A DNA stretch of 64,000 nucleotides from Oscillospiraceae bacterium (lineage in GTDB: Bacteria; Bacillota; Clostridia; Saccharofermentanales; Saccharofermentanaceae). The stretch lies in the NCBI GenBank assembly GCA_902775565.1, contig CACYMP010000005.1, forward strand, positions 17,911-81,910, read 5' to 3'. Within the stretch, counting starts at the first letter, position 1, and each line of letters opens with the position of its first letter. The notes under the pieces are model-generated. The model was not told where the DNA came from. It worked only from the letters and a program-made list of their open reading frames with translations, and did not search any database. A program made the position numbers and the translations under genes. Shown here one piece after another: positions 6,853 through 8,141 of the stretch.

Positions 6853-7833
6853 TTAAGAAGTATATGCCTCTAAAGCTCTGGAATAGTAATTCCGGAGCTT
6901 TGTTCTTAATGACTTGGGTTCTATCACCACGGCATCTTTTCCGAAGCGTCTGAAGTAATCCTCAAGCTGCATCTCGGGCCAGTCGAAATGATACTCGTCA
7001 CCGTCGATGTAGGTGACATACGGCCTGTTCTTGACGATCATGGTGTACATTTGCCTGCCGCGATCTGTCATCTTCACGACTGCGTGAATATCTTCAGACA
7101 TTGAGTGAGGGCTTCTGAGTCCCTTTCGTACCAGCTCGTCTTCGATCTTCTGATCCTTTGTGAAAGTGTTCGACGTGATGAAAACATTGCTGAGCCTTGA
7201 GATCCTGAACGAACGGTTCTTCTTAGCTCTCCGGTCGTGGCAGAGAAGATAGCTGAACTGCTCTTCTTTGGATGTCGCTATGAGGTAAGGCTCAACTATA
7301 ACTTTGCGGTCATGCCCTTTTGATGAGAAAGAAAGCTGTCTGCCTTCTGAAATGGCTTTGTTTATAGATTCGTATGTATCTTTGAATATGATCTCTTCGC
7401 GCTTGCTCCTTGGTATCGACAGGTAAGACAGGAACATATCCTTAATGTAGCCGGAGAGCGAATTCTCCTTAAGAAGATTATTCTCGATTATCTGAATTAT
7501 CTCGCAGGATGCGCCGCTGACCGTAAGCGTAATGACAGCGCTCTTGCCGGTACCCGAATCCTTGTTGTTTATATATGTCCTGATTATCTTATCGGCGAGG
7601 GCTGAAGCTGTTCTCGGCTTGAGTTCCTTAGCGGATGACAGTTCACCAAGAACGCTCTTAAGCAATTCCTCATTGTCGTTCCGGTATTGGTCGAAATAAT
7701 TGACGATGAGTTCTTTAAGAAAACCGTTGAGATTGACGGTCCCGTTCTCTCTTGTGAATTCGAAAAGCTCAGCATCGGTGGCAAGCCTCGTTTTGATGTC
7801 TTCTGAAAGGTATATCTTGTATTTCTCGGTCAT
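6853..7833 (-). CDS. WYL + WCX domain regulator with a non-canonical (possibly ribbon-helix-helix-like) N-terminus
   Basis: WYL-type core: KVIVEPYLIATSKEEQFSYLLCHDRRAKKNRSFRISRLSNV, with FSYLL in the WYL position and an RSFRISRL motif. The C-terminal extension (GKDAVVIEPKSLRTKLRNYYSRALEAY) is WCX-like. AGGAG RBS lies 7 nt upstream of the ATG. Confidence 0.75.
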   Translation of the reverse strand: MTEKYKIYLSEDIKTRLATDAELFEFTRENGTVNLNGFLKELIVNYFDQYRNDNEELLKSVLGELSSAKELKPRTASALADKIIRTYINNKDSGTGKSAVITLTVSGASCEIIQIIENNLLKENSLSGYIKDMFLSYLSIPRSKREEIIFKDTYESINKAISEGRQLSFSSKGHDRKVIVEPYLIATSKEEQFSYLLCHDRRAKKNRSFRISRLSNVFITSNTFTKDQKIEDELVRKGLRSPHSMSEDIHAVVKMTDRGRQMYTMIVKNRPYVTYIDGDEYHFDWPEMQLEDYFRRFGKDAVVIEPKSLRTKLRNYYSRALEAYTS

Positions 7834-7846
7834 TTTTAACTCCTGT

Positions 7847-7946
7847 TTGGGGTTGCATAAATAATAGAAAAGTCTGTAAATGCCTTAATAATCTAATTAT
7901 ATTGGGGTTGTATATTAAAGTCAATCTGCATCTGTTAAAACCCCAT
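7847..7946. promoter_or_regulatory. Three copies of an ACCCCA-core motif bracketing the WYL promoter (candidate operator set)
   Basis: CAACCCCAA occurs on the minus strand at 7855-7847 (5' UTR) and 7910-7902 (promoter spacer). An inverted copy, AAAACCCCAT, occurs on the plus strand at 7937-7946. Confidence 0.45.
7896..7924 (-). promoter_or_regulatory. Sigma-70-type promoter for the WYL gene
   Basis: On the minus strand: TTGACT (7924-7919), a 17-nt spacer, then TATAAT (7901-7896). It sits about 60 nt upstream of the WYL start codon. Confidence 0.55.
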
Positions 7947-7980
7947 AATCCGGGGTACCATACAATTGCAACGAGCGAAA

Positions 7981-8045
7981 GACACTCACAGCGATCAAGT
8001 ATCAGGCGGTCTTCGCAGGTTCGAATCCTGCATTCATGATGTGTC
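7981..8045 (+). ncRNA. tRNA-like element (candidate module of a YrlA-type Y RNA); true transcript ends unknown
   Basis: Perfect T-arm GCAGG-TTCGAAT-CCTGC at 8015-8031. It is closed by GACACTCA (7981-7988) pairing with TGA(T)GTGTC (8037-8045). There is no anticodon arm and no CCA. It sits in a 308-nt spacer upstream of the DUF2828 gene. Confidence 0.45.
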
Positions 8046-8141
8046 TTGTTATGCGTGTTGACTAAAGGTGCACACAGCAATTTAGGATCATGAACTGTTA
8101 ATTCATCGAAAAGCGCACCTTGTTATAAAGGAGAAAAGGAA

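What the first reader, a model, noticed from the sequence alone, without database searches (positions are those of the whole stretch)
7930..8075. tRNA-like element with a perfect T-arm in the spacer upstream of the DUF2828 gene: candidate YrlA-type Y RNA
SEEN: 8015-8031 is a textbook tRNA T stem-loop (GCAGG / TTCGAAT / CCTGC). GACACTCA (7981-7988) can pair with TGA-T-GTGTC (8037-8045) to form an acceptor-like closing helix with one bulge. There is no anticodon arm and no CCA, so it is not a tRNA gene. Further complementarity exists outside the module: AGTCAA..GCAT at 7919-7931 versus ATGC..TTGACT at 8051-8063. That 5' arm overlaps the -35 box of the divergent WYL promoter, so the outer helix is uncertain. 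ESTABLISHED: bacterial YrlA Y RNAs contain a tRNA-mimicking domain with conserved T-loop sequence and are encoded beside Ro-type genes. INFERENCE: this is the Y-RNA-like partner of the adjacent solenoid+vWA protein, or a tRNA-fragment decoy linked to RtcB. Transcript ends and strand are not established.
Basis: partly seen in the sequence, partly recalled or inferred. Interest (0 to 1): 0.7.

Follow-up and report, generated by a model that had tools for sequence, protein, structure and literature searches.

The report
tRNA-mimic RNA beside Ro-like gene
The tRNA-like hairpin is real: it is one of two units of a conserved structured RNA encoded just upstream of a Ro60-like protein and the RNA ligase RtcB, and the same "handle plus tRNA-mimic cargo" design recurs next to this protein family in many gut bacteria and cultured phages, apparently without having been catalogued.

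Summary
The T stem-loop (8015-8031) and a closing helix are real and covary in relatives. The helix register is AAGACAC 7979-7985 with GUGUCUU 8041-8047. The proposed outer helix is not supported.

The element is one of two tandem modules on the + strand, in the 5' leader of the DUF2828-RtcB operon. Each module has a "handle": a 7-bp stem, NNN-CAGC(A/G)A on the 5' side, and an unpaired G after the 3' strand. Module 1 (7979-8048) carries an invariant GG and a T arm. Module 2 (8065-8122) carries a hairpin whose loop CUGUUAA I recall as the tRNA-Asn anticodon loop.

Across 80 related loci plus the window, 205 modules lie upstream of the gene on its strand. 177 of 244 5' motifs have an exact cognate 3' strand, against about 4 after permutation.

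Cargos range from near-complete tRNA-likes (Rfam tRNA 36-57 bits, no acceptor ends) to YrlA-like permuted cores. Handles also flank DUF2828 genes in 8 of 10 cultured phages examined.

The DUF2828 model matches Ro60 structures first. Rfam YrlA does not hit the window.

Best reading: a Y-RNA-like partner of a Ro-like protein. It is a new variant, not YrlA. Binding and function are untested.

The parts
6853..7833 (-). Divergent WYL/WCX-domain transcription regulator gene.
   Evidence: Pfam WYL and WCX. A homolog is found divergently upstream in 58 of 80 related loci.
7846..7956 (.). Shared promoter/operator region (inferred). It holds TTGGGGTTG repeats at 7846-7857 and 7901-7912, the inverted AAACCCCA at 7937-7945 and GGGGT at 7952-7956. 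The WYL promoter on the - strand has its -35 at 7924-7919 and its -10 at 7901-7896.
   Evidence: Direct reading. The promoter scan matches 11 of 12 on the - strand. The blocks are conserved in L001-L016. The operator role is inferred.
7956..7966 (+). Candidate -10 for the RNA/operon promoter: TACCAT at 7956-7961, overlapping TACAAT at 7961-7966. This is inferred, and the transcript start is not established.
   Evidence: TAnCAT is conserved at this position in relatives. The consensus scan did not call it.
7979..8048 (+). Module 1. Handle stem 5' strand AAGACAC 7979-7985. Junction UCACAGCGA 7986-7994. Linker with invariant GG at 8008-8009. T arm 8015-8031 (GCAGG/UUCGAAU/CCUGC). AUUCAUGAU 8032-8040. 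Handle 3' strand GUGUCUU 8041-8047. Conserved unpaired G at 8048.
8049..8064 (+). Linker UUAUGCGUGUUGACUA. GUUGACUA is conserved only in the closest clade.
8065..8122 (+). Module 2. Handle stem 5' strand AAGGUGC 8065-8071. Junction ACACAGCAA 8072-8080. Anticodon-stem-loop-like hairpin AUGAA 8090-8094 / CUGUUAA 8095-8101 / UUCAU 8102-8106. Handle 3' strand GCACCUU 8115-8121. Conserved G at 8122.
8129..8144 (+). Shine-Dalgarno AGGAG (8129-8133) and the ATG (8142) of the DUF2828 gene. No terminator lies between the modules and the gene.
8142..9608 (+). DUF2828/DUF7788 protein: an N-terminal helical solenoid plus a vWA domain with a DGSGS MIDAS-type motif. By predicted fold it is Ro60-like.
   Evidence: Pfam. 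Invariant D294-G-S-G-S298. AF2 model with pLDDT 72.8. The nine best Foldseek hits are all Ro60/TROVE structures.
9723..10979 (+). RtcB RNA ligase gene.
   Evidence: Pfam RtcB, E = 6e-56. It lies directly downstream of DUF2828 in 57 of 80 loci.

Best explanation
The region 7979-8122 encodes, on the + strand, a two-module structured RNA. It is transcribed with the DUF2828-RtcB operon from a promoter shared with the divergent WYL regulator.

Each module is a "handle" holding a "cargo". The handle is a 7-bp closing stem, an unpaired NNN-CAGC(A/G)A on the 5' side, and an unpaired G after the 3' strand. The cargo is derived from tRNA. Module 1 shows a tRNA elbow (T arm plus GG). Module 2 shows a hairpin with a tRNA-Asn-like anticodon loop.

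I propose that the handle is the docking site for the Ro60-like DUF2828 protein. This would parallel the conserved stem and 5'-strand motif of Y RNAs that binds Ro60. I propose that the cargo recruits or occupies tRNA-recognising factors such as modification enzymes, anticodon nucleases or RtcB. The RNP would then act in tRNA damage control.

Shown: the structure, its conservation, its strand, and its association with the gene family. Inferred: co-transcription, protein binding, and the role in tRNA repair or decoying.
For: Structure:
- Handle stems are cognate-specific. 177 of 244 N7-N3-CAGCRA anchors have an exact complement plus G before the next anchor. After permuting stems among anchors the mean is 3.6 and the maximum 8. 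There are 14 stem variants in bacteria and about 20 more in phages.
- T arm covariation is supported.
- Covariation of the anticodon-like hairpin was tested with an alignment anchored on the loop only: 77.7% of cells pair against 46% when shuffled, with 0 of 500 shuffles as high.
- RNAalifold recovers both handle stems and the T arm.

Association:
- 205 modules lie in 132 kb upstream on the gene strand. Elsewhere, 1.34 Mb yields 78 mostly chance stems. The stricter pattern gives 159 against 5.
- Starting from the RNA motif alone, 46 of 240 viral stretches hold complete modules. 22 viral stretches encode a DUF2828 homolog, 20 of them among those 46, always on the same strand and adjacent.
- 8 of 10 cultured phages with the gene carry modules beside it.

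Protein:
- The nine best PDB fold matches are all Ro60/TROVE, with E from 7e-8 to 3e-5 over about 500 aligned columns.
- Phage homologs are annotated "Ro-like RNA binding protein" (PMC13148394).

Cargo is tRNA-like:
- The Rfam tRNA model hits inside modules at 36-57 bits, mostly covering model positions 3-7 to 64-68, i.e. without the acceptor ends.
- Permuted cargos score against YrlA at 17.6 and 39.8 bits.

Parallels from the literature:
- The Salmonella rsr-yrlBA-rtcBA operon (PMC7790460).
- Ro60 contacts mainly the 5' strand of the Y RNA stem (PMC4201824).
Against: - There is no binding or expression data.
- The RNA always lies in the same transcription unit as the gene. A purely cis-acting role is therefore not excluded for the window, where module 2 ends 7 nt before the Shine-Dalgarno.
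- The Ro60 similarity rests on a medium-confidence model (pLDDT 72.8, TM 0.4-0.5). Sequence searches against the PDB find nothing.
- The handle motif does not resemble the known Ro-binding motifs.
- YrlA is not detected in the window.
- Two of ten phages showed no clear module.
- I could not read Burroughs and Aravind 2016 (PMC5062991 is not held). Prior description there is possible.
Confidence: 0.6

Rival explanations
1. Cis-regulatory leader. The modules control translation or stability of the DUF2828-RtcB mRNA. One route is autoregulatory binding of DUF2828 next to the Shine-Dalgarno. Another is sensing of tRNA-directed nucleases.
For: In the window and its clade the last handle ends 19-35 nt before the start codon, and no terminator intervenes. 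The modules are always in the same transcription unit as the gene.
Against: In several phages the modules lie downstream of the gene: LeBron (followed by a terminator-like hairpin), Staphylococcus S-CoN_Ph3, and L146, L157, L200. In others they are scattered in tRNA arrays up to kilobases away (Tsamsa, VpaE1). That does not fit control of the ribosome-binding site. Arrays of up to 8 modules span 1.5 kb.
Confidence: 0.2
2. Decoy or sensor substrates. The cargos are cut by anticodon nucleases or other ribotoxins in place of real tRNAs. They are then resealed by RtcB, or their fragments signal to the WYL regulator.
For: Many cargos expose loops that, from my own knowledge, match authentic anticodon loops: CUGUUAA (Asn), CUGUCAC (Asp), CUGUAAA (Tyr), CUCAUAA (Met) and CUGAAAA (Phe). 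None has a free acceptor end. The UGU loops correspond to the queuosine tRNA set cut by colicin E5, which leaves RtcB-ligatable ends (own knowledge). RtcB follows the gene in 57 of 80 loci. The sponge idea has been proposed for array tRNAs (PMC8421152). A competitive-inhibitor role has been suggested for YrlA (PMC7790460).
Against: Many tRNA-like cargos have the anticodon loop replaced by a tetraloop such as UUCG (L057, L059, L054, L044, L055). Window module 1 has no anticodon arm at all. RtcB is absent from many loci. Salmonella YrlA was not cleaved by the SOS-induced nuclease.
Confidence: 0.15
3. Processing and ligation substrate. The handle marks sites where the module is excised, and RtcB joins the ends to give a circular or permuted tRNA-like RNA.
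For: The same handle holds both native-order and permuted tRNA-like cargos. RtcB joins 2',3'-cyclic phosphate and 5'-OH ends (established). The boundary nucleotides are conserved: A before the stem, G after it.
Against: No endonuclease is conserved in the loci. The viral stretches mostly lack RtcB. No ribozyme-like motif was recognised in the handle, and the Rfam searches run on module-containing sequence returned no ribozyme family.
Confidence: 0.04
4. Remnant of a tRNA gene 3' half left at an integration site, or a chance hairpin.
For: The T arm is a perfect tRNA consensus. Taken alone it is not beyond chance in 64 kb.
Against: There is no second copy of 8015-8039 within 3 mismatches. None of the neighbouring ORFs scanned against Pfam is an integrase. 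The whole arrangement is conserved and covaries across 80 loci and phages.
Confidence: 0.01

Closest known systems
YrlA (Rfam RF02553), the tRNA-like bacterial Y RNA bound by Rsr/Ro60
   Same: It is a non-coding RNA encoded beside, and on the same strand as, a Ro-type protein and often RtcB. A closing stem carries a conserved motif on its 5' strand. The core mimics tRNA with a consensus T loop and has no aminoacylatable end. Several such RNAs can occur per locus. Some phage modules share the permuted T, acceptor-like hairpin, D order and score weakly against the YrlA model (17.6 and 39.8 bits).
   Different: The window gets no YrlA hit. The flanking element is a different conserved motif (7-bp stem, NNNCAGCAA, G) rather than GNCGAAN0-1G. 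Many cargos are in native tRNA order, with the handle at the acceptor end and an exposed anticodon loop, which YrlA lacks. The protein partner is Pfam DUF2828/DUF7788, not TROVE. Arrays reach 8 modules.
Salmonella rsr-yrlBA-rtcBA RNA repair operon regulated by RtcR
   Same: A Ro-type protein, tRNA-like RNAs and RtcB sit in one transcription unit under a dedicated ligand-sensing regulator.
   Different: The regulator is a WYL/WCX protein rather than a CARF-containing sigma-54 activator. The RNAs precede the Ro-like gene. No RtcA is seen in the window.
Canonical tRNA genes and phage tRNA arrays
   Same: The T arm consensus is shared. Many cargos pass the Rfam tRNA gathering score. In phages the modules are interspersed with real tRNAs, tmRNA and ROOL RNA.
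   Different: There is no 7-bp acceptor stem and no CCA or discriminator end. ARAGORN finds nothing in the window, and elsewhere it calls odd anticodons or irregular loops. The handle encloses the cargo.
Eukaryotic and Deinococcus Y RNAs
   Same: They have a modular design: a stem that binds Ro and a variable effector module.
   Different: There is no sequence similarity. The transcription and processing context differs.

Membership tests
tRNA gene | Cloverleaf with a 7-bp acceptor stem, D, anticodon and T arms, detected by ARAGORN or the Rfam tRNA model at its gathering score | tested here: not met
   ARAGORN finds 0 genes in the window. Rfam at gathering finds nothing. Only model positions 46-63 match, at 14.5 bits against a gathering score of 29.
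YrlA (RF02553) | Score at or above the Rfam gathering threshold (69 bits) | tested here: not met
   There is no YrlA hit at E <= 10 in 7830-8145. Related phage modules reach only 17.6 and 39.8 bits.
YrlA (RF02553) | Permuted tRNA-like domain: V, then T arm, then acceptor-like hairpin, then D arm, between the 5' and 3' stem strands (PMC4201824) | tested here: not met
   In window module 1 only 9 nt separate the T arm from the closing strand. Relatives L003-L011 have a D-arm-like hairpin after the T arm, with a covarying 4-bp stem and loop RAGGYGAA. This hints at descent from the permuted type.
YrlA (RF02553) | GNCGAAN0-1G motif near the 5' end | tested here: not met
   The nearest string is AGCGAAAG at 7974-7981. 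It fails the first G and is not conserved in relatives. The conserved motif here is CAGC(A/G)A.
YrlA (RF02553) | Encoded within about 4 kb of a Ro60 ortholog, on the same strand | tested here: inconclusive
   The RNA is adjacent and on the same strand. However, the protein is DUF2828/DUF7788, not Pfam TROVE. It is Ro60-like only by predicted fold.
Y RNA (functional class) | Binds a Ro60-type protein through the stem formed by its ends | not testable with these tools
   Only co-occurrence is shown.
Y RNA (functional class) | tRNA-type modifications (pseudouridine 55, dihydrouridine) in the mimic domain | not testable with these tools
   The T loop UUCGAAU fits the consensus. No modification data are available.
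tRNA-derived attachment-site remnant | Duplicated tRNA 3' segment flanking a mobile element with an integrase | tested here: not met
   There is a single copy within 3 mismatches. The neighbouring ORFs scanned against Pfam include no integrase.
Ro60/TROVE protein (for the partner gene) | Helical-repeat ring plus a vWA domain with a MIDAS motif | tested here: inconclusive
   The top nine Foldseek hits are Ro60/Rsr/TROVE. DGSGS is invariant. However, the model pLDDT is 72.8 and TM 0.4-0.5, there is no Pfam TROVE hit, and there is no sequence-level PDB hit.

The most novel reading that the evidence does not exclude
A widespread, uncatalogued RNA class exists in which a universal handle presents interchangeable tRNA-derived cargos to DUF2828-type Ro-like proteins. 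The handle is a 7-bp stem of any sequence, NNNCAGCAA and a trailing G. Cargos include native-order and permuted tRNA-likes, bare elbows and bare anticodon hairpins. Arrays of these modules in Clostridia and in many phage lineages would act as a panel of decoys or sensors for tRNA-targeting nucleases. The lineages include FelixO1-like, Listeria P100-like, Tsamsa-like, cluster L mycobacteriophages, and Enterococcus, Staphylococcus and Campylobacter phages. Output would go to RtcB repair and, in bacteria, to a WYL regulator.
Probability: 0.25. Interest if true: 0.9.

Novelty: new variant of a known kind. Interest (0 to 1): 0.78.

Why it matters
What bacterial and phage Ro-type proteins and their tRNA-like RNAs do is still open. 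Here the RNA partner of a second, very common Ro-like family can be defined from sequence by a simple, strongly conserved handle. That family has over 700 records among cultured phages, including laboratory models for E. coli, Listeria, Mycobacterium and Staphylococcus.

This makes direct tests possible in tractable phages: binding, cleavage by anticodon nucleases, and resealing by RtcB.

It also predicts which tRNA features matter. The elbow is kept when everything else is lost. Loops of the queuosine-tRNA type are kept in another module.

If the cargos are decoys, they would be a new layer in the contest over tRNA cleavage between hosts, competitors and phages.

Tried and rejected
- Single-sequence folding of 7900-8141 on either strand is no better than shuffles.
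- ARAGORN and Rfam at gathering find nothing in the window. A permissive Rfam search gives only the T arm. No Rfam family covers the handle.
- A profile search of the PDB by sequence with the DUF2828 alignment gives no real hit. Only the fold comparison shows the Ro60 relationship.
- I considered whether the handle is a kink-turn, a small self-cleaving ribozyme, or a pseudoknot between CAGCAA and the 3' flank. No consistent complementarity or consensus was found (inspection).
- A possible 2-bp pairing between the junction GC(A/G) and (U/C)GG before the T arm (C7992-G8008, G7993-C8007) shows one compensatory lineage only, so it is too weak to claim.
- GUUGACUA in the linker resembles the 3' strand of vertebrate Y RNAs (from memory). 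It is conserved only in the closest clade, so I treat it as coincidence.
- Literature searches for DUF2828, DUF7788, WYL with RtcB, YrlA and Ro-like phage proteins found no description of this RNA.
- Burroughs and Aravind 2016 could not be read.
Full report
**1. The locus**

The finding lies in the 308-nt spacer 7834-8141. On one side is a divergent WYL/WCX regulator gene (6853-7833, - strand). On the other is a + strand pair: a DUF2828/DUF7788 protein (8142-9608) and RtcB (9723-10979). The flanking genes scanned against Pfam are ordinary metabolic or transport genes, and none is an integrase. By protein similarity the source is a rumen or gut member of the Oscillospiraceae, close to Saccharofermentans.

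**2. The observation**

The T stem-loop matches positions 46-63 of the Rfam tRNA model on the + strand. It scores only 14.5 bits. ARAGORN and Rfam at gathering thresholds find nothing in the whole window.

On its own the T-arm motif is not beyond chance: one match against 0.28 expected in 64 kb. Minimum-free-energy folding is no better than shuffled sequence. The case therefore rests on comparative evidence.

**3. Comparative evidence**

I fetched 80 loci that encode DUF2828 homologs at 59-93% identity. They come from Oscillospiraceae, Lachnospiraceae, Butyrivibrio, Oribacterium and related groups.

A GGTTCRANTCC T arm lies within 450 nt upstream, on the gene strand, in most of them, and the stem sequences differ between loci. 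ARAGORN calls odd "tRNAs" directly upstream of the gene in many loci. Their anticodon loops are irregular or their anticodons unexpected.

Reading the spacers showed a repeated frame around these elements. I call it the handle:

5' A-[7-nt strand]-NNN-CAGC(A/G)A ... cargo ... [complementary 7-nt strand]-G-U 3'

The window has exactly two handles, and the 5' pattern occurs nowhere else in the 64 kb:
- Module 2, 8065-8122: AAGGUGC / ACACAGCAA / cargo / GCACCUU / G. It ends 7 nt before the Shine-Dalgarno sequence.

**4. Is the handle real?**

- With an unconstrained stem sequence, 205 modules fall in the 132 kb of gene-strand sequence upstream of the genes. The other 1.34 Mb, both strands, yields 78 mostly random stems.
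- With the stricter pattern the counts are 159 against 5.
- A test that does not select on pairing took every N7-N3-CAGCRA anchor upstream. 177 of 244 have the exact Watson-Crick complement plus G before the next anchor. Permuting stems among anchors gives a mean of 3.6 and a maximum of 8.
- Fourteen stem variants occur in the bacterial loci.
- RNAalifold on the window plus 14 relatives independently predicts both handle stems and the T arm.
- On an alignment of module 1 homologs, the named structure pairs in 98.6% of cells. Four of the five T-stem pairs show compensatory changes. None of 500 shuffles reaches this, and slid controls give 32-56%.

**5. The cargos**

Cargo length is 26-171 nt in the 155 strict modules; longer cargos occur in modules found with looser criteria.

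*Near-complete tRNA-likes.* Many have D, anticodon and T arms but only a 3-4 bp acceptor stub. The Rfam tRNA model hits them above its gathering score, at 36-57 bits. The matches mostly cover model positions 3-7 to 64-68, so they lack the acceptor ends.

*Reduced forms.* Window module 1 keeps only an invariant GG (8008-8009) and the T arm. I read this as a tRNA elbow, which is an inference. Its relatives L003-L011 add, after the T arm, a D-arm-like hairpin. That hairpin has a covarying 4-bp stem and the loop RAGGYGAA.

*The module 2 hairpin.* Window module 2 keeps a hairpin, AUGAA/CUGUUAA/UUCAU (8090-8106). I anchored an alignment on the loop motif alone, across modules with AAGGUGC and AAAGCAC handles. 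The five flanking pairs are formed in 77.7% of cells, against 46% when shuffled. There are 44 doubly changed cells against 16 expected. No shuffle of 500 is as high, and slid controls give 25-35%.

*Loop sequences.* The loops seen are CUGUUAA, CUGUCAC, CUGUCAA, CUGUCCA and CUGUAAA. From my own knowledge, the first, second and last are the anticodon loops of tRNA-Asn, tRNA-Asp and tRNA-Tyr. Those are the queuosine family, recognised by Tgt through U33-G34-U35 and cut by colicin E5. Other cargos carry CUCAUAA (Met) or CUGAAAA (Phe) loops. Many tRNA-like cargos, however, cap the anticodon stem with a tetraloop such as UUCG.

**6. The partner protein**

Pfam sees only DUF2828 and DUF7788, with a sub-threshold VWA_2 match. 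A profile search of PDB sequences finds nothing real.

An AlphaFold2 model has mean pLDDT 72.8. It shows a helical N-terminal part and an alpha/beta C-terminal domain. Against the PDB, its nine best matches are all Ro60/TROVE structures: phage Ro60, Deinococcus Rsr, Xenopus Ro60 and human Ro60. E-values run from 7e-8 to 3e-5 over about 500 aligned columns, with TM 0.4-0.5. Isolated vWA domains follow. The MIDAS-type DGSGS is invariant.

Homologs occur in 711 cultured phage records. Many are annotated "RNA-binding protein" or "Ro-like RNA binding protein". For LeBron gp53 a 2026 paper uses that name and mentions no partner RNA (PMC13148394).

**7. Association tested from the RNA side and in cultured phages**

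I scanned IMG/VR with two 14-base handle patterns.
- 46 of 240 returned stretches hold complete modules.
- 22 stretches encode a DUF2828 homolog, and 20 of those are among the 46. The gene is always on the module's strand and adjacent, either upstream or downstream.
- No RtcB or WYL homolog was detected in those stretches.

In ten cultured phages carrying the gene, eight have handles beside it on the same strand:
- Bacillus phage Tsamsa: six, inside a 19-tRNA array.
- Mycobacterium phage LeBron: three downstream, followed by a terminator-like hairpin.
- E. coli phage VpaE1 (FelixO1-like): four, among tRNAs.
- Listeria phage LMSP-25: three upstream, with an annotated "tRNA splicing ligase" gene further downstream in the same locus.
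- Enterococcus phage EFDG1: three.
- Staphylococcus phage S-CoN_Ph3: three, downstream.
- Campylobacter phage CPX: two.
- Sinorhizobium phage phiM7: one or two.

Vibrio phage VH7D has only a degenerate copy, and Aeromonas phage Aeh1 has none.

The stem sequences differ completely between lineages, for example UGGACUC, AGACCGU, AGGAAUC and AUGGUAC. The junction CAGCAA and the trailing G stay the same.

**8. Relation to YrlA**

Chen et al. 2014 define YrlA by three features: a 5' GNCGAAN0-1G motif, a permuted tRNA-like domain (V, T, acceptor-like hairpin, D), and a position next to a TROVE protein (PMC4201824).
- Several phage cargos have exactly this permuted order inside the handle.
- The LeBron module scores 39.8 bits against Rfam YrlA, whose gathering score is 69. 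Its tRNA-like core aligns and its flanks do not. A metagenomic one scores 17.6 bits.
- The window gives no YrlA hit at E <= 10. It lacks the acceptor-like hairpin and the D arm. It also lacks the GNCGAA motif.
- The YrlA consensus printed contains no CAGCAA.

The window RNA is therefore not a YrlA member. It belongs to a sister design: the same idea (a handle for a Ro-type protein plus a tRNA mimic), a different handle, a different protein family, and cargo attached at either the acceptor end or the anticodon end.

**9. Transcription context**

The divergent WYL promoter matches the consensus at 11 of 12 positions, with its -35 at 7924-7919.

Repeats of TGGGGTT (7847-7853, 7903-7909), the inverted AACCCCA (7939-7945) and GGGGT (7952-7956) are conserved in relatives. 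They are likely the operator, which is an inference.

A TAnCAT/TACAAT element at 7956-7966 is the only plausible + strand -10. It would start the RNA about 10 nt before module 1. This is an inference, and the scan did not call it. No terminator separates the modules from the gene.

A WYL gene lies divergently upstream in 58 of 80 loci, and RtcB lies directly downstream in 57 of 80. Some loci add RlaP or an RNase III-like gene.

**10. Mechanism**

The best-supported reading is a Y-RNA-like ribonucleoprotein. The handle would dock the Ro-like protein, and the cargo would engage tRNA-recognising factors. The setting is an RNA-repair operon analogous to Salmonella rsr-yrlBA-rtcBA (PMC7790460).

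Shown: the structure, the strand, the conservation, and the association with the gene family across bacteria and phages. Inferred: binding, processing and function.

Rivals:
- A purely cis-acting leader. This is weakened by modules that lie downstream of the gene or are dispersed in phage tRNA arrays.
- Decoy or sensor substrates for anticodon nucleases. This is attractive for module 2-type loops. It is weakened by cargos capped with tetraloops.
- Excision and circularisation by RtcB. There is no direct support.
- A tRNA-gene remnant. This is refuted.

**11. Novelty**

Known already: the Ro/Y RNA concept, tRNA-like Y RNAs, RtcB operons, and the Ro-like annotation of phage DUF2828 proteins.

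Not found in Rfam 15 or in the papers I could search:
- this handle motif and its pairing with DUF2828 proteins;
- native-order tRNA mimics with exposed anticodon loops;
- arrays of up to eight modules;
- the WYL-regulated bacterial form.

One key paper, Burroughs and Aravind 2016, was not available. I therefore rate the finding as a new variant of a known kind, with that caveat.

Noticed in passing
window 7846-7857, 7901-7912, 7937-7945, 7952-7956: Four copies of a TGGGGTT/GGGGT motif (two direct, one inverted, one direct) bracket the divergent promoters. They are conserved in relatives L001-L016 and are probably the operator of the WYL regulator.
   Followed up: partly
L116 4082-4706 (-), L093 1-552 (-), L116 3098-3399 (-): Viral contigs that carry handle modules also carry ROOL RNA (341 and 254 bits) and a tmRNA. 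These lie within dense tRNA arrays.
   Followed up: no
L020, L031, L040, L023, L035, L028, L032, L058 (upstream regions): A further conserved hairpin, roughly GGCCCAUGAAAGCCACAGNAUCNUGGGCC, follows or lies near the modules in these Lachnospiraceae loci; in several it directly follows an AAGAUAC handle. It is not present in the window and is unexplained.
   Followed up: no
AAGAUAC-handle modules, e.g. L017 -154..-57, L020 -396..-295, L023 -158..-56 (relative to the gene start): A recurrent cargo holds the hairpin GCGGG-GUAAGAG-CCCGC and a long 5' part. It does not look like tRNA, and what it mimics is unknown.
   Followed up: no
L027 5517-5587, L038 5513-5606: Complete handle modules also lie about 50 nt after the end of the DUF2828 match, where RtcB usually begins (RtcB was detected in L027, not in L038). 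Position before the gene is therefore not obligatory in bacteria either.
   Followed up: no
L088 123-172, 374-424, 665-714 (- strand; contig named GVMAG, a giant-virus bin): Three short modules share the identical handle AAGACAC-UAACAGCAA and sit at 250-290 nt spacing. Their cargos are 27-28 nt.
   Followed up: no
window 7992-7993 with 8007-8008: RNAalifold pairs the junction C-G/A with the Y-G just before the invariant GG. G-C in the window, L001 and L002 is replaced by A-U in most relatives. This is one lineage only, so the evidence is weak.
   Followed up: partly
L073 and L077, -1500 to -50 relative to the gene: Seven to eight modules in a row span about 1.5 kb. Genuine tRNA genes lie between the last two modules (Rfam tRNA hits at 62.7 and 57.7 bits, L073 3771-3843 and L077 3724-3796). 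By my reading, the L073 tRNA carries a GAA (Phe) anticodon, and so does the adjacent L073 cargo.
   Followed up: partly
L052 1169-2369; L020 7800-8871: Arrays of 13 and 6 ordinary tRNA genes lie within a few kilobases of the bacterial DUF2828 locus. This echoes the phage arrangement.
   Followed up: no
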